Assembly (NCBI RefSeq): GCF_056712565.1
Contig: NZ_CM160072.1
Length of the DNA: 64,000 nt
Direction: 5' to 3' (one strand)
Part shown: positions 3,485 to 55,444 of the stretch, in pieces
Layout of the letters: the number at the start of each line of letters is the position of its first letter
Numbering within the stretch: position 1 is the stretch's first letter
Translations under genes and position numbers: made by a program
Notes under the pieces: model-generated
The model's database searches: none
Told to the model about the DNA's origin: nothing
Seen by the model: the letters and a program-made list of their open reading frames with translations, nothing else

Positions 3485-4912
3485 TTATTTCGTGTTTTTC
3501 GACGACGGTAATTCAATGCGGAAACAAACGTCTTGCCCGCTCTCGTCGACCAGATACAGTTCCCCTTGCATACGGCGAATACAATCCCTGGCAATGCTTA
3601 ATCCCAGACCGCTGCCCTTCACCGCCCCTTTTCGCTGGTGGCTTCCCTGAAAAAAGGGTTCGAAGATCATGGCGCGTTCCTCTTGCGGAATGGGCGTGCC
3701 TGTATTGATGACATCAATATAAACCCGCGCACCATGTAAACTGCTGCGAAGGCAAATGTTACCGGATTCAGCCCCGTAGTGCACCGCATTGGAGTAAAGA
3801 TTATCCAGTACGCTCATCAGCAGCATTGGCTCCGCCAGGCAAGCTGTTGCTTTGAGATCAACGTCGGTATGCATCATTTTAGCCCGTGCGGGCAGGCTAT
3901 GAGCAGAAACCACTGTCTCCACCAGCGGTGCTAACTCAACATTCTCCAGTTCCACCGCACTGTCCGCCTGTTTACGGTTGTAATCAAGCAGTTGTTCGAT
4001 CAGCTTTTGCAAATTGCGGCTGCTGCTATCAAGAATGCTCACCACCTCTTTTTGCTCTGGCGTAAGCGGCCCGACAACCTGATCAGCCAGTAATTCAGTG
4101 CCCTCGCGCATACTCGCCAGTGGCGTTTTTAATTCATGAGATAAATGTCTTAAAAATTGATGGCGTTGGGATTCCAGCCATGACAGGCGCTCACTTAACC
4201 AAAGAATACGTTGCCCAACCGAGCGTAACTCGCTCGGTCCACTGAACGAGACGCTATTGCCCAGAGAACGCCCTTCCCCCAGCCGGTTGATCATGCGCTC
4301 GATATTTTTCACCGGACCGATAATCATCCTCGTGAAAAGCAGTACCATCACCAGACTCACCAGAAATAGCACCAGCGATTGCCAACCAAAATATTGCCCA
4401 CGTTCGGCGATTTCACGCTGAAGTTGCTGCCCACGAGAGAACACCACTGTGCGCGTGGCCTGCACCATTTCGGTATTGGCACTGGCAAAGGCTTCCAGAC
4501 GCGCGGCGGCAGCAGCATCGGGACCGCTGTTGTTACACTGAAGTTGAGCCAGATTATTCAAATCCTGACGTAATGCCTGGTAGAGTTTATCGTCCGGCAG
4601 CACGCCTGCGTGGGCATCGAGCATTTCGCTGTAACGCTTGCGCTGGCTTTGATAAACCTTCGCAAGCGTAGGGTCGTCCAGCACGCAGTACTGACGGTAG
4701 CTGCGCTCCATCTCCAGTGCCGCGTTGGTCATCGCTTCACTGCGCCGGGCATCAATAAGCGTAGTGCGGTTAACCAGCGCCGCCTGATCGCTAAGTGCAT
4801 TCAGGCTTTGCCAGGCTTGCCATGCCAGCACCAACAGGGGCAGCAGAATCAGCAAAAATGCCAGCATTACCAGTTGTCGTAATGAGCGGGGAAAAACGGG
4901 CCAGCGGTTCAA
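3485..4912 (-). CDS. glrK: Sensor histidine kinase GlrK (YfhK)
   Basis: TM-HAMP-HisKA-HATPase architecture; start set at an internal TTG (…NRWPVFPRSL…, ~475 aa) because the ORF-track start at 4975 lies inside the glmY terminator. Start is uncertain. Confidence 0.8.
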   Translation of the reverse strand: MNRWPVFPRSLRQLVMLAFLLILLPLLVLAWQAWQSLNALSDQAALVNRTTLIDARRSEAMTNAALEMERSYRQYCVLDDPTLAKVYQSQRKRYSEMLDAHAGVLPDDKLYQALRQDLNNLAQLQCNNSGPDAAAAARLEAFASANTEMVQATRTVVFSRGQQLQREIAERGQYFGWQSLVLFLVSLVMVLLFTRMIIGPVKNIERMINRLGEGRSLGNSVSFSGPSELRSVGQRILWLSERLSWLESQRHQFLRHLSHELKTPLASMREGTELLADQVVGPLTPEQKEVVSILDSSSRNLQKLIEQLLDYNRKQADSAVELENVELAPLVETVVSAHSLPARAKMMHTDVDLKATACLAEPMLLMSVLDNLYSNAVHYGAESGNICLRSSLHGARVYIDVINTGTPIPQEERAMIFEPFFQGSHQRKGAVKGSGLGLSIARDCIRRMQGELYLVDESGQDVCFRIELPSSKNTK

Positions 4913-4964
4913 GGCGTTACTCTCGTCAGACGCGAATAGCCTGATGCTAACCGAGGGGAAGTTC

Positions 4965-5154
4965 AGATACAACAAAGCCGGGAATTACCCGGCTTTGTTA
5001 TGGAATAAGGCGGTGCCTAACTCGACGTTTCGCCCGATGGTTGATATAGCTACGCTGATATCAGAAGTTGGACGGCAGGCACCTTGTTGTGCGTCATTCG
5101 AATTTTATGTAGCACCTCCCGAAGGGGCTGACATAAGTCGGTGAATGAGCCACT
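4965..5154 (-). ncRNA. glmY: GlmY small RNA
   Basis: Minus-strand sequence AGTGGCTCATTCACCGACTTATGTCAGCCCCTTCGGGAGG…AAAGCCGGGTAATTCCCGGCTTTGTTGTATCT matches GlmY as recalled, including the terminator hairpin. Confidence 0.8.
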
Positions 5155-5164
5155 GCTTACTATT

Positions 5165-5181
5165 ATGCAGTAACTGTGCCA
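5165..5181 (-). promoter_or_regulatory. Sigma-54 promoter (-24/-12) of glmY
   Basis: Minus strand reads TGGCACagttaCTGCAT immediately upstream of the glmY 5' end. Confidence 0.6.
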
Positions 5182-5270
5182 ATAAAGAAAATAGTTTGGT
5201 AACGTACTGATTATAAACTGCTTTGAGGGGTTTATGGCTTCTCCACTATTTGAATGTAAATCAGCCACTG

Positions 5271-5288
5271 TGTCGCTAAAAAGAGACA
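5271..5288. promoter_or_regulatory. Putative GlrR (NtrC-type) binding site, TGTC-N10-GACA
   Basis: tgtcgctaaaaagagaca seen upstream of the glmY promoter. Confidence 0.5.
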
Positions 5289-5333
5289 ACTTAAGATAAA
5301 CTTATTAGATAATATTAAAATCAATGAGTTAAG

Positions 5334-5351
5334 TGTCACCAAAAAGCGACA
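5334..5351. promoter_or_regulatory. Putative GlrR binding site, TGTC-N10-GACA
   Basis: tgtcaccaaaaagcgaca seen upstream of the glmY promoter. Confidence 0.5.
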
Positions 5352-5487
5352 CGGCAAACCACCCATTGTCGTGATTTAAAGACACAAAAAAGCTCCCGAA
5401 GTTGGGAGCTCATAATAGCGGTTGGTGCTTAATGCCGGATGCGGCGTGAATGCCTCATCCGGGCTGCAATACCAATGGGTTGACGAC

Positions 5488-8400
5488 TTACCCCAACTGC
5501 TTACGTGCATTGCGGAAAATGCGCATCCATGGGCCATCCTCGCCCCAGTTTTCCGGATGCCAGGAGTTGCTGACAGTACGGAAAACACGTTCCGGGTGCG
5601 GCATCATAATGGTGACTCGACCACTTTCAGTCGTGACTGCCGTAATACCATTCGGAGAACCGTTCGGGTTAGCCGGGTAGGTTTCAGTGACTTTGCCGAA
5701 GTTATCGACATAGCGCAGTGCCACCAGCCCTTTGCTTTCCAGTGCCGCCAGATGCGCCGCATCACGCACTTCCACGCGCCCTTCACCGTGAGAGACAGCA
5801 ATCGGCATCTGCGAGCCCACCATCCCCTGCAACAGCAGCGACGGGCTTTGGGTTACTTCTACCAGACTGAAACGCGCTTCAAAGCGATCGGAGGTGTTAC
5901 GCACAAAACGTGGCCACAACTCGCTACCCGGGATCAGTTCACGCAGATTAGACATCATCTGGCAACCGTTACATACCCCCAGCGCCAGCGTTTGCGGACG
6001 ATGGAAGAAGGTTGCAAACTCATCGCGTACACGGTCATTGAACAGGATAGACTTCGCCCAACCTTCACCAGCGCCCAGCACATCACCGTAGGAAAAACCA
6101 CCGCACGCTACCAGGACGTGGAAACCCTCCAGGCCCGTGCGTCCAGCCAGCAGATCGCTCATATGCACGTCGATAGCATCGAAGCCCGCACGGTGGAAAG
6201 CTGCCGCCATTTCAACATGGGAGTTCACACCCTGCTCACGCAGTACGGCAACTTTCGGGCGCGCGCCAGTGGCAATAAACGGTGCTGCCACATCTTCGTT
6301 GATATCAAACGACAGTTTCACATTCAGGCCCGGATCGGCATCGTTTGATTTCGCCTGGTGCTCCTGATCGGCACACTCCGGGTTGTCACGCAGACGCTGC
6401 ATCTGCCAGGTCGTTTCTGCCCACCAGACACGCAACGTGGTGCGGCTTTCGCTAAATACAGTCTGCCCGTTGGCGGTAATCACAAAACGGTCACCGGAAA
6501 CCGCCTGCCCAACATAATGGACGCAATCAGCAAGCCCATGCTGTGCCAGTACCGCTTCAACGGCTTCACGGTCAGCGGCTCGCACCTGAATCACCGCACC
6601 CAGTTCTTCGTTAAACAACGCCGCCAGGCGATCGTCACCCAGAGTGGCGATATCCGCGTCAATGCCACAATGACCAGCAAAGGCCATTTCCGCCAGCGTT
6701 ACCAGCAGGCCGCCATCAGAGCGGTCGTGATACGCCAGCAGCTTACGCTGTGCAACCAGCGCCTGAATCGCGTCATAGAAGCCTTTCAGTTGGGCAACAT
6801 CGCGTACATCTGCCGGTTTGTCGCCAAGCTGACGATAAACCTGCGCCAGTGCCGTTGCGCCCAGCGCGTTATTGCCTTTGCCCAAATCAATCAGCAACAG
6901 TGCGTTATCTTCGGTAGAAAGCTGCGGCGTAATGGTGTGACGTACATCTTCCACGCGGGCAAATGCGGAAATCACCAGCGACAACGGCGACGTCATTTCG
7001 CGCTCTTCGTTACCTTCCTGCCAGCGGGTTTTCATCGACATAGAGTCTTTACCCACCGGTATCGTCAGGCCCAGCGCCGGACAAAGTTCTTCGCCCACAG
7101 CTTTAACGGCTTCATACAGGCCCGCATCTTCACCAGGGTGGCCTGCCGCCGCCATCCAGTTGGCGGAAAGTTTGATGCGTTTGATATCGCCAATCTGCGT
7201 TGCGGCGATGTTGGTTAACGCTTCACCGACCGCCAGACGGGCAGAAGCGGCGAAATCCAGCAGCGCAACTGGCGCACGTTCGCCAATTGCCATCGCTTCG
7301 CCATAGTAGCTGTCGAGGCTGGCGGTAGTGACCGCACAATTAGCGACCGGCACCTGCCACGGCCCCACCATCTGATCGCGCGCTACCATGCCGGTTACGC
7401 TGCGGTCACCGATGGTCACCAGGAAAGTTTTCTCCGCCACGGTCGGCAGATGCAGCACGCGTTTCACCGCGTCAGCGATGGTGATCCCTTCACGGGCCAG
7501 CGCGTCGCCTTTCGCTTTCAGCGTTTGTACATCGCGGGTCATCTTCGGCGTTTTGCCAAGCAGTACGTCCAGCGGTAGATCAATCGGCTGATTATCAAAA
7601 TGACGATCGTGCAAAGAAAGATGCAGTTCTTCGGTCGCTTCACCAATCACCGCGTATGGCGCGCGCTCACGCTTACACAGTTCGTCAAACAGCGGTAACT
7701 GATCGGCAGCAACCGCCAGCACGTAGCGTTCCTGGGATTCGTTACACCAGATTTCCAGCGGGCTCATGCCCGGTTCGTCGCTCAGGATATCGCGCAGTTC
7801 AAATTTACCGCCGCGCCCGCCGTCGCTCACCAGTTCCGGCATGGCGTTAGAAAGACCGCCTGCGCCAACGTCGTGGATAAACAGGATTGGGTTGGCATCA
7901 CCAAGCTGCCAGCAACGGTCGATCACTTCCTGGCAGCGACGCTCCATCTCCGGGTTGTCGCGCTGTACGGAAGCAAAGTCGAGGTCGGCATCAGACTGAC
8001 CAGATGCCATAGAAGACGCCGCGCCGCCGCCAAGACCGATGTTCATTGCCGGGCCGCCGAGAACGACCAGCTTCGCACCAACGTTGATCTCGCCTTTTTG
8101 TACGTGATCGGCGCGAATGTTGCCGATCCCACCCGCCAGCATGATCGGTTTGTGATAACCGCGCAGCTCTTCGCCATTGTGGCTGTTCACTTTTTCTTCA
8201 TAAGTACGGAAGTAGCCGTTCAGTGCCGGGCGACCAAATTCGTTGTTAAACGCCGCGCCGCCCAGCGGGCCTTCGGTCATGATGTCCAGCGCGGTAACAA
8301 TGCGCTCAGGTTTACCGAAATCTTCTTCCCACGGCTGTTCGAAGCCAGGAATTCGCAGGTTGGATACGGAGAAACCAACCAGACCAGCTTTCGGCTTTGC

Positions 8401-9375
8401 GCCACGTCCGGTGGCACCTTCATCGCGGATTTCACCGCCGGAACCGGTCGCCGCGCCCGGCCACGGAGAAATCGCCGTCGGGTGGTTGTGAGTTTCGACT
8501 TTCATCAGAATATGCGCCGGTTCCTGATGGAAATCGTAGCGGCCCGTTTCGTGGTCAGCAAAGTAGCGGCCCACTTCAGAACCTTCCATTACGGCGGCGT
8601 TATCTTTATAAGCAGAGAGAACGTGATCCGGCGTGGTTTCGAAGGTGTTTTTGATCATCTTAAATAGCGATTTCGGCTGCTGTTCACCATCGATAACCCA
8701 GTCGGCGTTAAAAATTTTGTGGCGGCAGTGCTCGGAGTTCGCCTGGGCAAACATATACAGTTCGATGTCGTTCGGATTACGACCAAGCCTTGTGAAAGCA
8801 TCCTGCAGATAGTCAATTTCATCTTCCGCCAGTGCCAGGCCAAGACGCAGGTTAGCGTCGATTAGCGCCTGACGGCCCTGCCCCAGCAAATCAACGCTGG
8901 TGACCGGAGTCGGTTGATGGTGTGCAAACAGCTGCTCTGCATCATCTAAAGCAAAAAAGACCGTTTCCATCATGCGGTCGTGCAGTTCAGCGGTAACCTG
9001 CTGCCATTGTTCATTGGTCAGCGTACCGGCTTCTATATAGTAAGCAACGCCGCGCTCAAGGCGGTTTACCTGTTGCAGCCCGCAGTTATGGGCAATATCG
9101 GTCGCTTTCGAAGACCAGGGAGAGATGGTGCCAGGACGCGGGGTCACCAGCAGGAGTTTGCCTTGCGGGGCGTGGCTGGCGAGTGCCGGGCCATATTTCA
9201 GCAGGCGTTCAAGTTGTGCGTGCTCATCATCGTTTAACGGCGCATTGAGGTCAGCAAAATGGACATACTCGGCGTAAATAGTGTGAACCAGGAGCCTGGC
9301 AGCCTGAAAACGTGCCAGCAGTTTGTTGATTCGGAATGCCGACAATGCAGGCGAACCACGCAGAATTTCCATCAT
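5488..9375 (-). CDS. purL: Phosphoribosylformylglycinamidine synthase
   Basis: Start at [14 protein letters not shown] (1295 aa); FGAM synthase with C-terminal glutamine amidotransferase domain. Confidence 0.95.
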
Positions 9376-9453
9376 AAGTCTCTCGTCTTCTAAGCTTTCG
9401 GTGTACCCAAGGGGGGGGGAAACGGGCGTCATTATAAAGAATCTGATGCGCTG

Positions 9454-9469
9454 ACGAAACCGTTTGCGT
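9454..9469. promoter_or_regulatory. Putative PurR operator in the purL leader
   Basis: acgaaaccgtttgcgt resembles the PurR box ACGCAAACGTTTGCGT. Confidence 0.45.
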
Positions 9470-9634
9470 GGAAATAAAATCACCATCGTGAATTAGCAAC
9501 GCGTGCCGCCAATGGCTGTAATAAGTTGCCATCTGGCGCAGGTTTACGCAAAATGCCGCTCATTTATGAGTAAACCTTTCACTATTATTACGTTTTTTCA
9601 AGCTGGGACGCGCACGACACAGAGAATTAACTAA

Positions 9635-14031: not shown

Positions 14032-14393
14032 TCGTTTTTCCTTAAACAAGGAATGCAGCCGTTCAGATTAGCCCTTACATCTCCCCAAAACTGAACGTGC
14101 GAGTTATTGGAATCGAGTGCTGCACTCCACACCAGAGCTTTGACGACACCACTCGTTTCAATGGGGGAATTCAGTGGCATGGTGTAAAGCACAGCAAAAT
14201 TGCCAATAACGAAACCGATTTTAATGTACTTATCAAAAAGCGGTCACGTTAATCTTTTCATCAATGTCGATTTCTTCGTAAAGGCTCGCGTTTTTTATGT
14301 CAGAGATTGCAAGTTGCTTGTACAGGTCAACGAAATTGATCCATAATCATTTTCGTTGGAATCGTGTGCTGCACAAAATTAAAGTTAAAAAGT

Positions 14394-14426
14394 AAAACCC
14401 CCGTTCCTTACCAGTTCGGGGGTTTT
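14394..14426. terminator. Hairpin terminator downstream of acpS
   Basis: aaaacccccg…cgggggtttt followed by a T-rich tract. Confidence 0.5.
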
Positions 14427-14451
14427 ACTTTATAAAGAGAACGGTATTATT

Positions 14452-16314: not shown

Positions 16315-17927
<1,613 letters not shown>

Positions 17928-18163
17928 TCAGCACACGAAACAGACCTGATATACATAGCTCTGCTAACTGCTTCGCTGCAGTTTAGCGGTATATGGGGAC
18001 CAACGCTGTTTCGTGTGCCGTGGCAACCTGGAGGTGCCAACCTTAAACTTCGGGGGAATATTCTATACACAACGACGGGGGATGTCGTTAGCCACGGGAG
18101 ATTTATCTCATAAATAATTCACGTTGTCGCCATAACGGCGACAACGTGAACGAAGATGGGCTA

Positions 18164-19153: not shown

Positions 19154-20953
19154 TTATTTGTTGTCTTTGCCGACGTGCAGAATGGCGAGGAACGCTTCCT
19201 GCGGCAGCTCGACGTTACCGATCTGCTTCATGCGTTTCTTACCTTCTTTCTGCTTCTGCAGCAGCTTTTTCTTACGACTGATATCGCCGCCATAACATTT
19301 AGCCAGTACGTTTTTACGCAGCTGTTTCACGGTGGAGCGCGCAATGATGTGCGTACCAATCGCTGCCTGAATGGCGATATCAAACTGCTGGCGCGGGATC
19401 AGATCTTTCATCTTCTCCACCAGCTCGCGACCGCGGTTTTGCGAATTACCACGATGGGTGATCAGCGCCAACGCATCAACACGTTCACCGTTGATTAATA
19501 CGTCTACACGTACCATGTCGGACGCCTGGAAGCGTTTGAAGTTGTAATCCAGAGACGCATAACCACGCGAGGTAGATTTCAGGCGATCGAAGAAATCGAG
19601 CACCACTTCCGCCATCGGGATCTCGTACGTCAGCGCCACCTGATTACCGTGGTAAACCATATTGGTCTGCACGCCGCGTTTTTCTACGCACAGCGTAATA
19701 ACGTTGCCGAGATATGCCTGCGGCAGCAGCATGTGACATTCTGCAATCGGCTCGCGCAGTTCGTAGATGTTATTTACCGCTGGCAGCTTGGATGGGCTGT
19801 CGACGTAGATAACTTCTCTTGACGTGGTTTCAACTTCATACACTACGGTCGGCGCAGTGGTGATCAGATCCAGATCGTATTCACGTTCCAGACGTTCCTG
19901 GATGATCTCCATGTGCAGCAGACCGAGGAAGCCGCAGCGGAAACCAAAGCCCAGCGCGCTTGAGCTTTCCGGCTCATAGAACAGTGAGGCATCGTTCAGG
20001 CTGAGTTTACCCAGCGCGTCACGGAAGGCTTCATAGTCGTCGGAACTTACCGGGAACAGACCGGCGTATACCTGCGGTTTGACTTTCTTAAAGCCAGGCA
20101 GCGCCTTTTCTGCCGGATTACGCGCCAGCGTTAAGGTATCGCCTACTGGAGCGCCGTGGATATCTTTAATCGCACATACCAGCCAGCCTACTTCGCCACA
20201 TTTCAGTTCAGTGCGGTCAACCTGTTTTGGCGTAAAAATACCCAGACGGTCGGCGTTATAGGTCTGCCCGGTACTCATGACTTTCACTTTGTCGCCCTTA
20301 CGCAGGGTGCCGTTTTTAATACGGATAAGTGAAACAACGCCCAGGTAGTTGTCGAACCAGGAGTCGATAATGAGTGCCTGTAACGGGCCTTCCGGATCGC
20401 CTTCCGGCGGCGGAATGTCGCGCACCAGACGTTCGAGAACGTCCTGCACGCCAACGCCGGTTTTCGCTGAACAGCGCACCGCGTCAGTGGCGTCGATGCC
20501 GACGATATCTTCAATTTCTTCCGCCACGCGTTCAGGATCAGCTGCCGGCAGGTCAATCTTGTTCAGTACCGGCACCACTTCGAGATCCATTTCCATGGCG
20601 GTGTAGCAGTTTGCCAGGGTTTGCGCTTCTACGCCCTGCCCGGCGTCGACCACCAGCAATGCACCTTCACATGCAGCCAGCGAACGAGAAACTTCATAGG
20701 AGAAGTCTACGTGGCCCGGGGTGTCGATAAAGTTAAGCTGATAGGTTTCGCCGTCAGACGCTTTGTAGTCCAGCGTCACGCTTTGCGCTTTGATGGTAAT
20801 GCCACGCTCACGCTCAAGATCCATGGAATCGAGAACCTGCGCCTCCATTTCACGGTCAGACAGGCCACCGCAGATCTGGATAATACGGTCAGACAGCGTC
20901 GATTTACCGTGGTCAATGTGAGCTATGATCGAAAAGTTACGTATATTCTTCAT
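19154..20953 (-). CDS. lepA: Elongation factor 4 (LepA)
   Basis: 599-aa translational GTPase (AHIDHGKST). Confidence 0.95.
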
Positions 20954-21150
20954 AAAGTATGATTATTGTGCCTTAATGCCCGGTTAACCAGGCTTTTAGA
21001 AGTCGCTGTTCTGAGCTTAACGTCTGTATTAATAGAAACGCCGCATTCTACACTACAACATTGAGGCGAGGAAATGTTCATACCGTATGGATTGTGGTAT
21101 CTGGAAACGTCCTCGCATTTGTTATGCAAAATGCAACAAAGCCAGTGAAA

Positions 21151-21630
21151 TCACTGGCTCGCGTCTTCCGAAGATGTTTCAAATCGCACAAGGCCAGGCG
21201 GCAAGGCCACGCTTAAGATGATCGGTTGCCATTCTGCCCGGGCAGCAAACTTACGCGAGTAGCCGCGCGCAATCAGGAACCCGCCAAAACCGCCGAGGAT
21301 CGCACCACATAATGCTGCGACGTCAGAAGCAAAGAGTAGCTGAAATAGCGAAGCGATGAGGAATAATCCCACCAGCGGCGACATATAAACCAGTAATGCG
21401 GAGCTAAGCAGGCTGCCTTCGGCGATTCCTAATTCTACTTTTTGCCCCGGCACTAACGGCTCATCACAGGGTACGACAATGGTATGCGTGGTTTGCGGGC
21501 CAAGTTTATTCAACACGCGGCTACCGCAACCGGCGCGTGAAGCGCAGCTGCTGCATGAGGCTTTAACATCACAACTGACCAGCGCCTGCCCGTTTTGCCA
21601 GGAGACGACGGTAGCCCACTCTTTGATCAT
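21151..21630 (-). CDS. rseC: SoxR-reducing system protein RseC
   Basis: 159 aa; last gene of the rpoE-rseABC operon. Confidence 0.9.
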   Translation of the reverse strand: MIKEWATVVSWQNGQALVSCDVKASCSSCASRAGCGSRVLNKLGPQTTHTIVVPCDEPLVPGQKVELGIAEGSLLSSALLVYMSPLVGLFLIASLFQLLFASDVAALCGAILGGFGGFLIARGYSRKFAARAEWQPIILSVALPPGLVRFETSSEDASQ

Positions 21631-22583
21631 TGCGCTGCCCCGAACTTAATATTCTCGGCAATGCGTTTCGCCGTTTGCGGCGGCAGTTCACCGACAATGG
21701 TGATTTCGGCGTTATCACGTACGCTTGTACTGACGGTTCTGCGTCCGGTGCGCAACATCTGATCGCTGCTCGATGGCGTAGCGCGGTTAACGTTTACCGA
21801 GAAGCTGAATAATCCGTCGGAATAGAGACGTGATTCGATAGGCATGTTGTCCATCGTCGGTAGCGGACGTCGACTACTGGAAACTTCGCTAAAACCCTGT
21901 GGCAACCAGGTTGGCGTCCAGCTGAATTTAGCTTTTTCACCTACAGGAACAGAAAGCAACGGCGGCAAATTTGCCTTCGCCAGCGTCTGCATACTGCTGC
22001 TGATATCCTGATTGACGTTAAAAGCAATCACGCGAAATTGTTCCAGCGTTTCACCATCGCGATCAAGGAGATCAACCCGCATCGGTAATTTCGATTCGGT
22101 GTCCATCCACACAATGTAGCTGTAGCGTGTGCCATCACGGGCGACTACGCGAATGACTTCGCAAAGACGATCAGCAATACGCGTGCGTCCCACGGAGATA
22201 AAGTCGTAGTAAGGAGAAAGGCGTTTGAAATCGGTATAAATGAGCGATGGCAGAGAATCAACAATGTAATCGCCATTAAGCGTGAACGGTTCAAGGCCCG
22301 GCTCAAAGTAGCTGATTTCATTGCCGCGCTGTACCACTTCCCGGCGCGGGCCATCCATTTGCAACAGCTGTGCAAGCGGACGGTTATCGAGGCGTGCATG
22401 TCGATAACGCAGAGACTCAACACCCTGTTTATTGATGCTGATGAATGACAGCTCGTAATTCAGTGACTGACTGGCCAGGTTCATCTGCTGTAATAACGCC
22501 CCGGACGCGGGAGTGGCCGAGGCGTTAGCAGAGAATAACAGGCTACCTGTCACTAATGACATGGCAAACCAAAGTTGCTTCAT
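21627..22583 (-). CDS. rseB: Sigma-E regulatory protein RseB
   Basis: 318 aa with signal peptide. Confidence 0.9.
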   Translation of the reverse strand: MKQLWFAMSLVTGSLLFSANASATPASGALLQQMNLASQSLNYELSFISINKQGVESLRYRHARLDNRPLAQLLQMDGPRREVVQRGNEISYFEPGLEPFTLNGDYIVDSLPSLIYTDFKRLSPYYDFISVGRTRIADRLCEVIRVVARDGTRYSYIVWMDTESKLPMRVDLLDRDGETLEQFRVIAFNVNQDISSSMQTLAKANLPPLLSVPVGEKAKFSWTPTWLPQGFSEVSSSRRPLPTMDNMPIESRLYSDGLFSFSVNVNRATPSSSDQMLRTGRRTVSTSVRDNAEITIVGELPPQTAKRIAENIKFGAAQ

Positions 22584-23265: not shown

Positions 23266-23841
23266 TCAACGCCTGATAAGCGGTTGAACTTTGTTATCAA
23301 TAGCTTCCCTCGCTCGGAAGATACGTGAACGCACCGTACCTACCGGACAATCCATGATAGCGGCTATCTCTTCATAGCTCAGGCCATCCAGCTCCCGCAA
23401 GGTTATTGCCATGCGTAAATCTTCCGGGAGGGACTCAATAGTTCGGAAAACTATCTGTCTCAGTTCTTCTGACAACATTAAGTTCTCAGGGTTCGAAATT
23501 TCTTTCAACGCGCCGCCACTTTCGAAGTTTTCAGCTTCAATGGCATCCACATCACTGGAAGGTGGACGACGCCCCTGAGCAACCAGGTAATTTTTCGCTG
23601 TATTTACAGCAATCCGATACAGCCATGTATAAAAAGCGCTATCTCCCCGGAACGAATCCAGCGCACGATAGGCTTTAATAAAAGCTTCTTGTACCACATC
23701 GGGAACATCACCCGACGGCACATAGCGGGAAACCAGACTCGCCACTTTATGCTGATAGCGCACTACCAGTAAGTTAAAGGCTTTCTGATCTCCCTTCTGG
23801 ACCCGTTCAACCAGGACCTGGTCCGTTAACTGCTCGCTCAT
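23266..23841 (-). CDS. rpoE: ECF sigma factor sigma-E
   Basis: Start at MSEQLTDQVLVERVQKGD (191 aa). Confidence 0.95.
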   Translation of the reverse strand: MSEQLTDQVLVERVQKGDQKAFNLLVVRYQHKVASLVSRYVPSGDVPDVVQEAFIKAYRALDSFRGDSAFYTWLYRIAVNTAKNYLVAQGRRPPSSDVDAIEAENFESGGALKEISNPENLMLSEELRQIVFRTIESLPEDLRMAITLRELDGLSYEEIAAIMDCPVGTVRSRIFRAREAIDNKVQPLIRR

Positions 23842-23951: not shown

Positions 23952-24239
23952 GTAACGCATCTGTTTTTGTTTGTCATGCTGTAGACGGATCATTATCTAT
24001 CATTATAAGTCTACAGAATCTGAACATCGCATTATCTGTGTAGAAATGCCCATTTAACTGCCTGAAGAGTAACCCAACGGCCTTTTTATTTCACCACCTA
24101 ATCCTCCACCAGCCAGTAACTTCTCGTTTTCTCGCCGCCCTGAGGCAGCGTGTTTAGTCACTGTAACAAATATTAAAATAGCAGGTGTTTATTCGCACAA
24201 CATGATGTTATGCTGACCAAACCGTGTTTAGTAAATTAA

Positions 24240-26593
<2,354 letters not shown>

Positions 26594-42427: not shown

Positions 42428-42547
42428 ATGCCTGGCAGTTCCCTACTCTCGCATGGGGAGACCCCACACTACCATCGGCGCTACGGCGTTTCACTTCTGA
42501 GTTCGGCATGGGGTCAGGTGGGACCACCGCGCTAAGGCCGCCAGGCA
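42428..42547 (-). rRNA. rrf: 5S ribosomal RNA
   Basis: Reverse complement matches E. coli 5S rRNA (TGCCTGGCGGCC…GGGAACTGCCAGGCAT). Confidence 0.95.
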
Positions 42548-42640
42548 AATTCTGTTTCATTAACCCGCTTGTCGCCGGTTAATCTAATCTGTATCAGGCT
42601 GAAAATCTTCTCTCATCCGCCAAAACATCTTCGGCGTTGT

Positions 42641-45544
<2,904 letters not shown>

Positions 45545-45737
45545 TCACAACCCGAAGATGTTTCTTGCGATTCATCATCGTGTTGCGAAAATTTGAGAGA
45601 CTCACGAACAACTCTCGTTGTTCAGTGTTTCAATTTTCAGCTTGATCCAGATTTTTAAAGAGCAAATATCTCAAACATCACCCGAAGATGAGTTTTGAGA
45701 TATTAAGGCAGGTGACTTTCACTCACAAACCAGCAAG

Positions 45738-45813
45738 TGGCGTCCCCTAGGGGATTCGAACCCCTGTTACCGCCGTGAAAGGGCGGTGTCCTGGGCCTCT
45801 AGACGAAGGGGAC
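45738..45813 (-). tRNA. gltW: tRNA-Glu (UUC) in the 16S-23S spacer
   Basis: Reverse complement reads GTCCCCTTCGTCTAGAGGCCCAGGACACCGCCCTTTCACGGCGGTAACAGGGGTTCGAATCCCCTAGGGGACGCCA. Confidence 0.95.
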
Positions 45814-45898
45814 GTATCAGTCTGCTTCGCAAGACGCCTTGCTTTTCACTTTCTATCAGACAATCTGTGTGAGCACTGCAAAGTACGCTTCTTTAAGG

Positions 45899-47440
<1,542 letters not shown>

Positions 47441-47881: not shown

Positions 47882-50455
47882 TTACTGGACGGCGACGATC
47901 CGGTCTTCATTAACTTCCAGGCGAATAACTTTACCCGGAACCAATTCACCAGACAGTATTTGCTGTGCCAGCGGGTTTTCGATCTGCTGCTGGATAGCAC
48001 GCTTCAGAGGACGTGCACCATAGACCGGATCGTAACCGTTCTCGCTCAGCAGTTTCAGCACCTCGTCAGAAATGTGGATTTCATAACCACGTTCTTCCAG
48101 ACGTTTGTACAGACGTTTCAACTGAATCTGCGCAATCGACGCAATGTGTTGTTCACCCAGCGGATGGAAGACGACGACTTCATCGATACGGTTAATGAAT
48201 TCCGGACGGAAGTTATGGCTTACCACACCGAGCACCAGCTCTTTCATGTGCGCATAATCCAGTTCACCAAAACGTTCCTGAATCAGATCAGAACCGAGGT
48301 TAGAGGTCATAATGACGACCGTATTACGGAAGTCGACCGTTCTCCCCTGCCCGTCAGTCAGACGCCCATCATCCAGTACCTGCAACAGAATGTTGAAGAC
48401 ATCCGGATGCGCTTTTTCCACTTCATCCAGCAGGATGACGGAATACGGACGACGACGCACCGCTTCGGTCAGATAGCCACCTTCTTCATAACCAACATAT
48501 CCCGGAGGCGCACCAACCAGACGAGACACCGAGTGTTTCTCCATAAACTCGGACATATCAATACGGACCATCGCCTCGTCGCTATCAAACATAAAGTTCG
48601 CCAGCGCCTTACAAAGCTCTGTTTTCCCCACACCCGTTGGGCCGAGGAACAGGAATGAACCAATCGGGCGATTTGGATCCGCCAGCCCCGCACGGCTACG
48701 ACGAATAGCGTTAGATACCGCATCAACCGCTTCGTTCTGACCAATAACGCGATGATGCAGTTCTTGCTCCATACGCAGCAGTTTTTCGCGCTCGCTTTCC
48801 ATCATGCGAGAAACCGGAATTCCCGTCCAACGCGCCAGCACTTCAGCAATTTCGGCATCGGTCACTTTATTACGCAACAGACGCATAGTTTTGCCTTCGA
48901 GCTGCGTTGCGGCTTCCAGTTGCTTTTCCAGTTCCGGGATTTTGCCGTATTGCAGTTCAGACATCCGCGCCAGGTCACCCACACGGCGAGCCTGTTCAAT
49001 AGCGATTTTCGCCTGTTCCAGTTCCGCTTTAATGGTCTGCGTACCAGAAAGCGAGGCTTTCTCTGCTTTCCACTCTTCTTCTAACTCGGAGTACTGACGT
49101 TCTTTGTCGCTCAGTTCTTCGTTGAGCATATCCAGGCGTTTTTTACTGGCTTCATCAGACTCTTTCATTAACGCCTGTTGTTCCAGTTTGAGCTGGATGA
49201 TACGACGATCGAGTCGGTCGAGTTCTTCTGGTTTTGAGTCAATCTGCATACGAATGCTGGATGCTGCTTCATCGATCAGGTCGATGGCTTTATCCGGCAG
49301 CTGACGGTCAGCAATGTAGCGATGAGACAACGTCGCCGCTGCAACAATTGCCGGGTCAGTAATTTGCACATGGTGGTGCAGCTCGTAACGTTCTTTCAGG
49401 CCACGCAGAATCGCAATGGTATCTTCAACAGAAGGCTCGGCAACAAACACTTTCTGGAAACGACGTTCCAGCGCAGCATCTTTTTCGATGTACTGGCGAT
49501 ATTCGTCAAGCGTCGTGGCACCTACGCAGTGCAATTCACCACGCGCCAGCGCCGGTTTCAGCATGTTTCCGGCGTCCATTGCGCCATCGGCTTTACCCGC
49601 GCCGACCATGGTATGTAATTCGTCGATAAACAGGATGACGTTGCCTTCCTGTTTGGCAAGATCGTTAAGTACGCCTTTTAAACGTTCTTCAAACTCACCG
49701 CGATATTTCGCCCCAGCCACCAGCGCGCCCATATCCAGCGCCAGTACGCGGCGGCCTTTCAACCCTTCGGGCACTTCGCCGTTGATAATACGCTGCGCCA
49801 GACCTTCAACGATGGCAGTCTTACCGACGCCTGGTTCACCAATCAGTACCGGGTTATTTTTAGTACGACGTTGCAGCACCTGAATGGTACGGCGAATTTC
49901 TTCATCACGACCAATCACCGGATCGAGTTTACCCTGTTCGGCTCGTTCGGTAAGGTCGATGGTATATTTTTTCAAAGCCTGACGTTGGTCTTCAGCACCT
50001 TGATCGTTCACGCTTTCACCTCCACGCATTTGTTCAATCGCTTGAGTAATGTTGGCGGTGGTCGCCCCTGCTGCTTTCAGGATGTCGGCCAGCGTGCCGC
50101 GAGACTCAAGTGCCGCCAGAACGAACAGTTCTGACGAGATAAAGTTATCACCACGTTTTTGCGCCAGCTTGTCGCAAAGATTAAGAACGCGCACCAGATC
50201 CTGTGATGGCTGGACATCACCACCAGTACCTTCAACCTGCGGTAAACGATTTAATGCCTGATTGATATCTGTGCGCAACTGGCCAGCATTTATGCCAGCG
50301 GATGTTAATAAAGGACTAACCGAACCCCCTTCCTGATTCAGCAGGGCGCTCATTAAATGAAGTGGTTCGATGAATTGGTTGTCGTGCCCGAGTGCAAGTG
50401 ATTGGGCATCGGCAAGAGCAAGCTGGAATTTATTAGTAAGACGATCCAGACGCAT
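47882..50455 (-). CDS. clpB: Chaperone/disaggregase ClpB
   Basis: Start at [18 protein letters not shown] (857 aa); two AAA+ modules. Confidence 0.95.
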
Positions 50456-50489
50456 AACTCCTCCCATAACGGATCAAAGTTGCTACTGG

Positions 50490-50525
50490 AGATTAAATGA
50501 GGTCATCCCTCAATTATTCAAGGTT
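50490..50525 (-). promoter_or_regulatory. Sigma-32 heat-shock promoter of clpB (approximate)
   Basis: Minus strand CTTGAAtaattgagggatgacCTCATTTAat resembles the sigma-32 consensus CTTGAAA…CCCCATnT. Confidence 0.5.
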
Positions 50526-50584
50526 ATTGACCAGATTAATGTGAAAAGAAAATCACGCGTACCGGATCGTCTTGATTCTTTAGG

Positions 50585-55264: not shown

Positions 55265-55318
55265 TGACAGCGTGAAAACAGTACGGGTACTGTACTAAAG
55301 TCACTTAAGGAAACAAAC

Positions 55319-55366
55319 ATGAAACACACACCGTTTTTCTTCGCATTCTTTTTTACCTTCCCCTGA
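55319..55366 (+). CDS. pheL: pheA leader peptide (Phe-rich attenuation peptide)
   Basis: atg…tga encodes MKHTPFFFAFFFTFP*, seven Phe in 15 aa. Confidence 0.85.
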   Translation: MKHTPFFFAFFFTFP

Positions 55367-55414
55367 ATGGGAGGCGTTTCGTCGTGTGAAACAGAATGCG
55401 AAGACGAACAATAA

Positions 55415-55444
55415 GGCCTCCCAAATCGGGGGGCCTTTTTTATT
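55415..55444 (+). terminator. pheA attenuator terminator
   Basis: aggcctccc-aaatc-ggggggcct followed by ttttttt, between pheL and pheA. Confidence 0.7.

What the first reader, a model, noticed from the sequence alone, without database searches (positions are those of the whole stretch)
4912..5351. glmY sRNA with sigma-54 promoter and GlrR sites; the ORF-track glrK N-terminus overlaps the sRNA terminator
GlmY (minus strand) is followed directly by glrK. The longest ORF in the track starts glrK at 4975, inside the GlmY terminator hairpin, so the true start is more likely the internal TTG at about 4912. Upstream of glmY there is a TGGCAC-N5-CTGCAT sigma-54 element and two TGTC-N10-GACA palindromes, consistent with the known GlrK/GlrR–GlmY circuit. 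This is known biology, noted as a caution for gene calling.
Basis: partly seen in the sequence, partly recalled or inferred. Interest (0 to 1): 0.25.

Follow-up and report, generated by a model that had tools for sequence, protein, structure and literature searches.

The report
glmY sRNA locus and true glrK start

Summary
The window is E. coli (100% identical to strain HS13-1). The finding is real, correctly interpreted and already known.

On the minus strand lie:
- glmY, 5154..4971 (Rfam RF00128, 146 bits; same 184-nt extent as the K-12 annotation);
- a sigma-54 -24/-12 box, TGGCAC-N5-CTGCAT, 5181..5165;
- an overlapping sigma-70 -10 box, CATAAT;
- two IHF-consensus sites;
- three TGTC-N10-GACA GlrR sites, not two.

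The longest glrK ORF does start at TTG 4975, in the 3' arm of the glmY terminator hairpin (-23.4 kcal/mol).

Four lines of evidence place the real start at TTG 4912:
1. RefSeq and K-12 annotate a 475-aa protein from there.
2. The literature maps the qseE mRNA 5' end 25 nt upstream of that codon (about 4937), downstream of 4975.
3. In 76 Enterobacteriaceae loci this codon is always TTG or GTG. Codon periodicity begins right after it. The upstream spacer varies in length in all three mod-3 classes, and half the loci have an in-frame stop there.
4. The terminator shows compensatory base-pair changes.

A third candidate, ATG 4867, chosen by many automatic callers, is also rejected. Both wrong versions exist in public databases. 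Interest is low.

The parts
5385..5411 (-). purL intrinsic terminator (GAGCTCCCAACTTCGGGAGCTTTTTTG). Its T-run abuts ABS1.
   Evidence: Terminator scan; sequence.
5367..5384 (-). GlrR/QseF activator binding site ABS1 (TGTCTTTAAATCACGACA), -230..-213 relative to glmY +1.
   Evidence: Pattern search. Three sites are reported in PMC3045617, where ABS1 is said to be dispensable and less conserved.
5334..5351 (-). GlrR/QseF binding site ABS2 (TGTCGCTTTTTGGTGACA), -197..-180.
   Evidence: Conserved at the same distance in orthologous loci. Reported as essential for the sigma-54 promoter in PMC3045617.
5319..5331 (+). IHF-consensus site (AATCAATGAGTTA, WATCARNNNNTTR) between ABS2 and ABS3.
   Evidence: Two IHF sites flanking ABS3 are described in PMC3045617.
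5271..5288 (-). GlrR/QseF binding site ABS3 (TGTCTCTTTTTAGCGACA), -134..-117.
   Evidence: PMC3045617.
5200..5212 (-). IHF-consensus site (AATCAGTACGTTA) between ABS3 and the sigma-54 promoter, -58..-46.
   Evidence: PMC3045617.
5165..5181 (-). Sigma-54 -24/-12 promoter element TGGCAC-N5-CTGCAT, -27..-11 relative to glmY +1.
   Evidence: A strict match is present at the same distance in 53 of 76 orthologous loci. Literature: PMC3045617.
5162..5167 (-). Sigma-70 -10 hexamer CATAAT, overlapping the sigma-54 -12 element.
   Evidence: Sequence. Named as the characterised -10 box in PMC3045617.
4971..5154 (-). glmY, full-length 184-nt sRNA. It starts AGTGGCTCAT. The processed ~148-nt form ends near 5007, within the GCCUUAU motif at 5011..5005.
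   Evidence: Rfam; K-12 ncRNA annotation b4441 mapped by alignment; fold z-score -5.5. The processing motif is mentioned in PMC8745638.
4969..5001 (-). glmY intrinsic terminator hairpin (14-bp stem, 5-nt loop, -23.4 kcal/mol). The loop holds the in-frame stop TAA 4987..4985. The 3' arm holds TTG 4975, the start of the spurious 496-aa ORF.
   Evidence: Across 41 sequences, 9 of 14 pairs show compensatory changes.
4944..4972 (-). glrK/qseE sigma-70 promoter, inferred: -35 TTGTAT (4972..4967, overlapping the terminator tail), 17-nt spacer, -10 TAGCAT (4949..4944).
   Evidence: [quoted passage not shown] The hexamers are my assignment from the sequence. TAGCAT is present in 59 of 76 loci, and in 58 of those it lies 30-33 nt from the start codon.
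4937..4937 (-). Transcription start of the qseEGF mRNA (an A), placed by applying the published '25 bp upstream of the start codon' to TTG 4912.
   Evidence: PMC6075780. Position arithmetic.
4920..4924 (-). Weak Shine-Dalgarno sequence GAGAG, 7 nt before TTG 4912.
   Evidence: The only conserved block upstream of the start (low entropy at -12..-9). A purine-rich SD-like tetramer (GAGA in 54 loci, AAGA/GGGA/GAGG in 16) lies 7-10 nt from the start in 70 of 76 loci.
3485..4912 (-). glrK (qseE), 475 aa, TTG start at 4912..4910, stop TAA 3487..3485.
   Evidence: RefSeq CDS WP_001350885.1 maps to these coordinates. K-12 b2556 is 475 aa. Comparative evidence.

Best explanation
The region is the E. 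coli purL-glmY-glrK intergenic control region, and it works as already described in the literature.

Activation of glmY. Phosphorylated GlrR (QseF) binds three TGTC-N10-GACA sites 117-230 bp upstream of glmY. IHF bends the DNA at two sites flanking ABS3. GlrR then activates sigma-54 RNA polymerase sitting on TGGCAC-N5-CTGCAT. [quoted passage not shown]

The sRNA. The 184-nt GlmY ends at a strong intrinsic terminator and is processed to about 148 nt. GlmY acts as a decoy for RapZ, which spares GlmZ and raises glmS expression. This step is established knowledge and was not tested here.

glrK expression. glrK-qseG-glrR is a separate, weakly expressed transcription unit.
- Its sigma-70 promoter lies in the 58-nt spacer. 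The -35 box overlaps the terminator tail and the -10 box is TAGCAT.
- The mRNA starts about 25 nt before TTG 4912.
- Translation starts at that TTG, behind a weak GAGAG Shine-Dalgarno sequence, and gives the 475-aa kinase.

The spurious ORF. The 21-codon upstream extension to TTG 4975 is not coding. It exists only because no stop codon happens to fall between the terminator loop (TAA 4987) and the real start.
For: Shown here:
- Rfam match and fold for GlmY.
- Motif searches with shuffle controls.
- RefSeq and K-12 annotations give a 475-aa GlrK from the TTG and a 184-nt glmY.
- In 76 orthologous Enterobacteriaceae loci the 4912-equivalent codon is TTG in 70, GTG in 6 and ATG in none.
- Per-position entropy shows codon periodicity (positions 1 and 2 near 0, position 3 high) beginning at codon 2 and running through codons 7-15. 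Upstream, only the GAGA block is conserved.
- The terminator-to-start spacer is 55-97 nt, with mod-3 classes of 35, 25 and 14 loci. An in-frame stop lies in the spacer in 38 of 74 loci.
- TAGCAT sits 30-33 nt from the start in 58 of the 59 loci (out of 76) that have it.
- Terminator covariation is seen in 9 of 14 pairs.
- TTG 4975 is paired with probability above 0.997 in any RNA that contains it. TTG 4912 is 83-97% unpaired in the mapped mRNA.

From the literature:
- Three GlrR sites, IHF sites, overlapping sigma-54 and sigma-70 promoters, and glrK transcribed independently (PMC3045617).
[quoted passage not shown] Read-through from glmY is virtually absent. QseE is very weakly expressed (PMC6075780).
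Against: - I found no direct N-terminal protein evidence (Edman sequencing, N-terminomics or initiation-site ribosome profiling) for GlrK. PMC6075780 notes that QseE was undetectable in global proteomics.
- The primary paper that mapped the TSS (Reichenbach 2009) is not in the library, so the TSS rests on a secondary citation.
- My -35 and -10 assignment matches only 8 of 12 consensus positions and fell below the promoter scanner's threshold.
- The SD is weak (-3.4 kcal/mol).
- Low-level extra initiation at ATG 4867 in E. coli cannot be excluded by comparative data alone.
Confidence: 0.95

Rival explanations
1. GlrK is the 496-aa product of the longest ORF. Translation would start at TTG 4975 inside the glmY terminator, presumably on glmY-glrK read-through transcripts.
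For: The ORF is open from 4975. Exactly this 496-aa protein has been deposited for several E. coli genomes, e.g. EIG70376.1, and for UTI89 ABE08336.1 / UniRef100_Q1R8H8. In Escherichia and Citrobacter the extension translates to a partly similar peptide, LYLxFPSVSI.
Against: - The mapped mRNA 5' end (about 4937) is downstream of 4975, and read-through from glmY is reported as virtually absent (PMC6075780).
- TTG 4975 is buried in a -23.4 kcal/mol hairpin, with P(unpaired) at most 0.003.
- In 38 of 74 orthologous loci an in-frame stop lies in the spacer, and spacer lengths fall in all mod-3 classes.
- There is no codon periodicity upstream of 4912.
- The partial peptide similarity is explained by conserved DNA elements: the terminator tail with the -35 box, and GTTAGCAT containing the -10 box.
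- The hairpin shows RNA-type compensatory changes.
Confidence: 0.01
2. GlrK starts at the in-frame ATG 4867 (codon 16 of the annotated protein), giving a 460-aa kinase. Many automatic gene callers predict this.
For: ATG is the canonical start. Calls of 460-463 aa are frequent among metagenome and Logan gene predictions, accounting for 36 of the 120 best database clusters.
Against: - Codons 2-15 (KRWxxFPRSLRQLV) are conserved at the amino-acid level with free third positions across 76 loci.
- Codon 16 is Thr, Ile or Val, with no ATG at that position, in several Citrobacter, Kluyvera, Pseudescherichia, Atlantibacter and related loci.
- Starting at 4867 would remove the three N-terminal arginines that precede the first hydrophobic segment. 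This conflicts with the positive-inside rule, which is my inference.
- No SD-like sequence lies upstream of 4867 (-2.8 kcal/mol).
Confidence: 0.03
3. glmY and glrK-qseG-glrR form one operon driven by the GlrR-activated sigma-54 promoter, as reported for Proteus mirabilis. This would give positive autoregulation through terminator read-through.
For: Synteny is conserved in all 76 loci. Co-transcription has been demonstrated in P. mirabilis, where GlmY is reported to lack a terminator (PMC8745638).
Against: - E. coli has a strong, covarying terminator.
- lacZ fusions with or without the complete glmY locus gave indistinguishable qseE expression, and there was no autoregulation.
- RT-PCR showed virtually no read-through (PMC6075780).
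- A conserved -10 box sits at a fixed distance from the start codon in most Enterobacteriaceae.
Confidence: 0.04

Closest known systems
E. coli K-12 glmY (b4441) with its GlrR/IHF/sigma-54 plus sigma-70 promoter (Reichenbach 2009; Goepel 2011, PMC3045617)
   Same: - Same gene order, purL-glmY-glrK.
- Same 184-nt extent.
- Identical sigma-54 box, CATAAT -10 box, terminator and ABS3.
- Three ABS and two IHF sites at the same positions.
   Different: Only strain-level differences:
- two substitutions in GlmY (+39 G for C, +54 T for A) and one at -2;
- single-base changes within the N10 spacers of ABS1 and ABS2;
- an 18-nt indel in a REP-like hairpin upstream of the purL terminator.
E. coli K-12 GlrK/QseE/YfhK (b2556, NP_417051.2, 475 aa) and RefSeq WP_001350885.1
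   Same: - Same TTG start and the same 58-nt spacer to glmY.
- The window protein is identical to WP_001350885.1.
   Different: Residue 2 is Asn (AAC) in the window and Lys (AAA) in K-12.
Proteus mirabilis glmY-qseEGF operon (PMC8745638)
   Same: Same gene order, and the same overlapping sigma-54/sigma-70 promoter architecture with three QseF sites and two IHF sites.
   Different: In Proteus the four genes are reported as co-transcribed, with no terminator after glmY and no promoter in the spacer. Here there is a strong terminator plus a separate glrK promoter.

Membership tests
GlmY sRNA (Rfam RF00128, clan CL00011) | Covariance-model score above the gathering threshold, and better than the sibling family GlmZ. 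| tested here: met
   146.4 bits against a gathering score of 33, covering model positions 1-163 of 163. The overlapping lower-scoring clan member was discarded.
GlmY sRNA (Rfam RF00128, clan CL00011) | Conserved synteny: between purL and glrK-qseG-glrR. | tested here: met
   Annotation of the identical RefSeq region and of K-12. The terminator lies upstream of glrK in 74 of 76 loci. Literature: PMC3045617.
GlmY sRNA (Rfam RF00128, clan CL00011) | Acts as a RapZ decoy that stabilises GlmZ. | not testable with these tools
   Known for K-12 GlmY (PMC7073468 and PMC4152352 abstracts). The window RNA differs from K-12 at 2 of 184 nt.
Sigma-54-dependent, bEBP-activated promoter | A -24 GG and -12 GC element with the TGGCAC-N5-TTGCW spacing, just upstream of the RNA 5' end. 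| tested here: met
   TGGCACAGTTACTGCAT at -27..-11. It is the single match in 64 kb and is conserved in 53 of 76 loci.
Sigma-54-dependent, bEBP-activated promoter | Upstream activator sites more than 100 bp away, plus IHF site(s) in between. | tested here: met
   Three TGTC-N10-GACA sites at -117..-230. IHF-consensus matches at -46..-58 and -165..-177.
Sigma-54-dependent, bEBP-activated promoter | Transcription depends on rpoN and on the activator. | not testable with these tools
   Reported for E. coli glmY in PMC3045617.
Intrinsic (Rho-independent) terminator | G+C-rich hairpin followed by a U-tract at the mapped RNA 3' end. | tested here: met
   A 14-bp stem of -23.4 kcal/mol ending in UUUGUUGU at the annotated 3' end; covariation in 9 of 14 pairs. 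Caveat: the simple scanner did not call it, because the U-tract is itself paired with an upstream A-tract.
QseE/GlrK sensor histidine kinase | HAMP, HisKA and HATPase_c domains, and identity to named QseE/GlrK proteins. | tested here: met
   100% identical to cluster P0001, named QseE/GlrK, with PF00672, PF00512 and PF02518 on cluster relatives. RefSeq names it qseE. NCBIfam has no dedicated QseE model; only generic kinase hits below their cut-offs appeared.
Protein-coding N-terminal extension (4975..4913) | Reading frame preserved, no stops, and third-position-biased substitution among orthologues. | tested here: not met
   In-frame stops lie in the spacer in 38 of 74 loci. Spacer lengths fall in all three mod-3 classes. 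There is no periodicity upstream of the TTG.

The most novel reading that the evidence does not exclude
The most novel reading not excluded is that the invariably non-AUG start of glrK is a selected translational throttle. The codon is TTG in 70 and GTG in 6 of 76 Enterobacteriaceae loci, and never ATG. Together with a weak SD and a weak promoter whose -35 box overlaps the glmY terminator, it would hold the kinase at a very low copy number. Terminator-promoter overlap could also let heavy glmY transcription transiently occlude the glrK promoter. The conservation of the start codon is shown here. Any regulatory meaning is inference. The published lacZ fusions, which were unaffected by the upstream glmY locus (PMC6075780), argue against the occlusion part.
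Probability: 0.15. Interest if true: 0.3.

Novelty: already known. Interest (0 to 1): 0.1.

Why it matters
Biologically nothing new is revealed. The GlrK/GlrR-sigma54-GlmY-RapZ-GlmZ-glmS circuit and the separate qseEGF promoter are published.

The practical value is for annotation.
- At this locus a longest-ORF rule makes a protein gene overlap an sRNA terminator. In Citrobacter and related genera it even translates the whole sRNA gene, giving 497-539-aa entries.
- ATG-preferring callers instead truncate the kinase by 15 conserved residues.
- All three versions coexist in public protein databases.

The locus is therefore a clean test case for start-codon prediction around non-coding RNA genes and non-AUG starts.

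Tried and rejected
- I looked for direct N-terminal or initiation-site evidence for GlrK in the paper library and found nothing relevant.
- I tried to read the primary TSS-mapping paper, Reichenbach 2009, by DOI. It is not held, so the TSS is cited through PMC6075780.
- An NCBIfam scan of the 496-aa ORF, meant to show where a family profile begins, was uninformative. There is no QseE-specific model, only generic histidine-kinase hits to the C-terminal half.
- The generic sigma-70 promoter scan did not report the glrK promoter, which matches 8 of 12 positions, one short of the scanner's threshold of 9. It also did not report the glmY sigma-70 promoter. Its only promoter-like hits (5339..5311) overlap ABS2 and the IHF site and have no support.
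- The terminator scan missed the glmY terminator because its U-tract is inside the extended stem.
- A loosened sigma-54 search with 2 mismatches gave 22 hits against 25.6 expected, which is noise.
- A loosened TGT-N12-ACA search gave 19 hits against 14.2 expected, also mostly noise.
- The idea that the extension peptide similarity between Escherichia and Citrobacter reflects coding was rejected. The conserved stretches coincide with the terminator tail/-35 box and the GTTAGCAT -10 block.
Full report
**Identity of the window.** An 801-nt query spanning the finding (window 4700-5500) matches 5,425 of 5,426 complete E. coli genomes and is 100% identical to strain HS13-1. In that RefSeq record the features, mapped to window coordinates on the minus strand, are glrR, qseG, qseE (3485..4912) and purL (from 5488). 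In K-12 MG1655 the same layout is annotated. glrK (b2556) is 475 aa, glmY (b4441) is a 184-nt ncRNA, and 58 nt lie between them. Base-by-base alignment with K-12 places glmY at window 5154..4971. PGAP does not annotate glmY in HS13-1, so the RefSeq record itself gives no warning that an sRNA lies there.

**Checking the observation.**
- Rfam's GlmY model matches 5007..5154 (-) at 146.4 bits (gathering score 33), over the full model. This corresponds to the processed ~148-nt form.
- The 190-nt RNA folds at -69.8 kcal/mol, z = -5.5 against shuffles, with a 14-bp terminal hairpin.
- TGGCAC-N5-CTGCAT is at 5181..5165, i.e. -27..-11 of glmY +1, and is the only such match in 64 kb.
- TGTC-N10-GACA occurs three times in the window, at 5384..5367, 5351..5334 and 5288..5271, against 0.82 expected in 64 kb. 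All three lie within 114 bp.
- Two matches to the IHF consensus WATCARNNNNTTR flank the proximal site, at 5331..5319 and 5212..5200.
- All of this agrees with Goepel et al. 2011. That paper describes three TGTCN10GACA GlrR sites more than 100 bp upstream, two IHF sites flanking ABS3, and a sigma-70 -10 box CATAAT (here 5167..5162) overlapping the sigma-54 -12 element (PMC3045617).
- The longest ORF is indeed 3485..4975 (-), 496 aa, with a TTG start. TTG 4975 lies in the 3' arm of the terminator hairpin 5001..4969, and the in-frame stop that bounds the ORF is the TAA in the hairpin loop (4987..4985).

**Which start is real?** There are three in-frame candidates: TTG 4975 (496 aa), TTG 4912 (475 aa) and ATG 4867 (460 aa). 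A search of the protein database with the long ORF shows that all three kinds of call exist in public data. The 120 best clusters include lengths of 475-478, 460-463 and 497-539 aa. The 497-539-aa entries, from Citrobacter and some others, begin with peptides such as MTHNKVPAVQ...HNKAG...LLYL, which is the glmY gene translated. The exact 496-aa E. coli product has been deposited, e.g. EIG70376.1 and UTI89 ABE08336.1 / UniRef100_Q1R8H8.

**Experimental evidence from the literature.** Goepel and Goerke 2018 state four things, citing Reichenbach 2009 for the mapping (PMC6075780):
- lacZ fusions with or without the whole glmY locus give the same low activity.
- Read-through from glmY virtually does not occur.
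- QseE is barely detectable.

Applied to TTG 4912, the mRNA starts at about 4937 (an A). TTG 4975 is then not on the message. No other in-frame start-capable codon lies between 4937 and 4912.

The sequence offers a plausible promoter at the right place: -35 TTGTAT (4972..4967, overlapping the terminator tail), a 17-nt spacer, and -10 TAGCAT (4949..4944) ending 7 nt before 4937. This hexamer assignment is mine. It matches 8 of 12 consensus positions and was below the scanner's threshold.

**Comparative evidence.** A scan of one genome per species with a GlrK alignment returned 80 loci from Escherichia, Citrobacter, Salmonella, Enterobacter, Kosakonia, Lelliottia, Trabulsiella, Buttiauxella, Kluyvera, Cedecea, Atlantibacter and others. 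Seventy-six had enough upstream sequence.
- The codon equivalent to 4912 is TTG in 70 loci, GTG in 6 and ATG in none.
- Column entropies show the coding signature (positions 1 and 2 near zero, position 3 high) switching on at codon 2. It continues through codons 7-15, which lie upstream of the ATG candidate.
- Upstream of the TTG all three positions vary freely, except a GAGA block at -12..-9. This is the Shine-Dalgarno region, found 7-10 nt from the start in 70 of 76 loci.
- Codon 16 is not ATG in several genera, where it is Thr, Ile or Val. The 460-aa form therefore cannot be the conserved product.
- The distance from the terminator stem to the start codon ranges from 55 to 97 nt, falling into mod-3 classes of 35, 25 and 14 loci.
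- In 38 of 74 loci an in-frame stop lies within the spacer. In 16 it lies in the terminator, and in 20 it lies further upstream. Those 20 are the loci that generate ORFs running through glmY.
- The one strongly conserved spacer element is GTTAGCAT. TAGCAT is present in 59 of 76 loci, and in 58 of those it sits 30-33 nt from the start codon. The length variation therefore lies between the terminator and the -10 box, as expected for a promoter with a fixed 5' UTR.
- The terminator hairpin itself shows compensatory double substitutions in 9 of 14 pairs across 41 distinct sequences. That is RNA-structure constraint, not coding constraint.

**Thermodynamics.** The hairpin is -23.4 kcal/mol. In any transcript containing it, TTG 4975 is unpaired with probability at most 0.003. 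In the mRNA starting at 4937, TTG 4912 is 83-97% unpaired.

**Conclusion on mechanism.** The region works as published.
- GlrK/QseG-controlled GlrR~P binds ABS1-3, and IHF bends the DNA.
- Sigma-54 polymerase fires at 5154, with a weak sigma-70 promoter sharing the start site.
- GlmY is terminated at 4971 and trimmed near 5007.
- glrK-qseG-glrR is expressed separately and weakly from the spacer promoter, with translation from TTG 4912.
- The downstream action of GlmY as a RapZ decoy is established knowledge (PMC4152352, PMC7073468) and was not tested here.

I put 0.95 on this account, about 0.01 on the 4975 start, about 0.03 on ATG 4867 as the main start, and about 0.04 on meaningful glmY-glrK co-transcription in E. 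coli. Co-transcription is reported for Proteus mirabilis, where the terminator and spacer promoter are said to be absent (PMC8745638).

**What remains unproven.** I found no direct N-terminal or initiation-site data for GlrK, and the primary TSS paper was not readable. The universal non-AUG start is an observation made here. Whether it is a selected throttle on kinase abundance is inference.

**Novelty and interest.** The residual value is as an annotation caution and a benchmark case. At this locus, longest-ORF and ATG-preferring gene calling fail in opposite directions next to an sRNA gene.

Noticed in passing
window 9375-9486 (-): purL shows the same kind of overshoot. The longest ORF starts at ATG 9486 (1332 aa), but the RefSeq/K-12 protein (1295 aa) corresponds to ATG 9375 ([12 protein letters not shown]...), which is 37 codons shorter.
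   Followed up: partly
window 5430-5462 (-): There is a REP-like inverted repeat (CCGGATGAGGCATTCACGCCGCATCCGG) between the purL stop and the purL terminator. K-12 lacks 18 nt of it, so this is a strain-level indel in a palindromic element.
   Followed up: no
L006:900-1510 (Escherichia albertii): glmY and the glmY-glrK spacer are nearly identical to E. coli, but the promoter region upstream of about -40 is strongly diverged. The GlrR half-sites read GACG instead of GACA, the sigma-54 box is TGGCAT-N5-CTGCA, and the sequence upstream differs from the E. coli purL end. There is a sharp boundary of divergence at the promoter.
   Followed up: partly
Proteins P0007-P0011, P0036, P0044; loci L007, L008, L012, L044: Public protein entries of 497-539 aa for QseE/GlrK in Citrobacter and related genera translate through the glmY terminator or the whole glmY gene. 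In those species no stop codon interrupts the frame, and one cluster alone has 707 member sequences.
   Followed up: yes
window 24151-24168 and 24225-24242 (rpoE-nadB intergenic region; rpoE about 23841..23266, -): rpoE, the other published QseF/sigma-54 target, is in this window. No strict TGTC-N10-GACA site occurs there. Two loose TGT-N12-ACA matches that share TGTTTAGT lie in the intergenic region. The loose pattern is near chance level overall (19 found, 14.2 expected).
   Followed up: partly
window 5116, 5101, 5156 (-): GlmY of this strain differs from K-12 at +39 (G for C, in the apical part of stem-loop 1) and at +54 (T for A). Position -2 of the promoter is G instead of C. GlrK residue 2 is Asn rather than Lys.
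   Followed up: no
window 14355-14431, 17843-18051, 20835-21666, 42430-47440, 50436-50574, 55318-55443: Other Rfam hits in the window are ohsC, rncO, AsrC (antisense to rseC), an rRNA operon with a spacer tRNA and StyR-44, RyfD, and the Phe leader. All are expected for this stretch of the E. coli chromosome.
   Followed up: no
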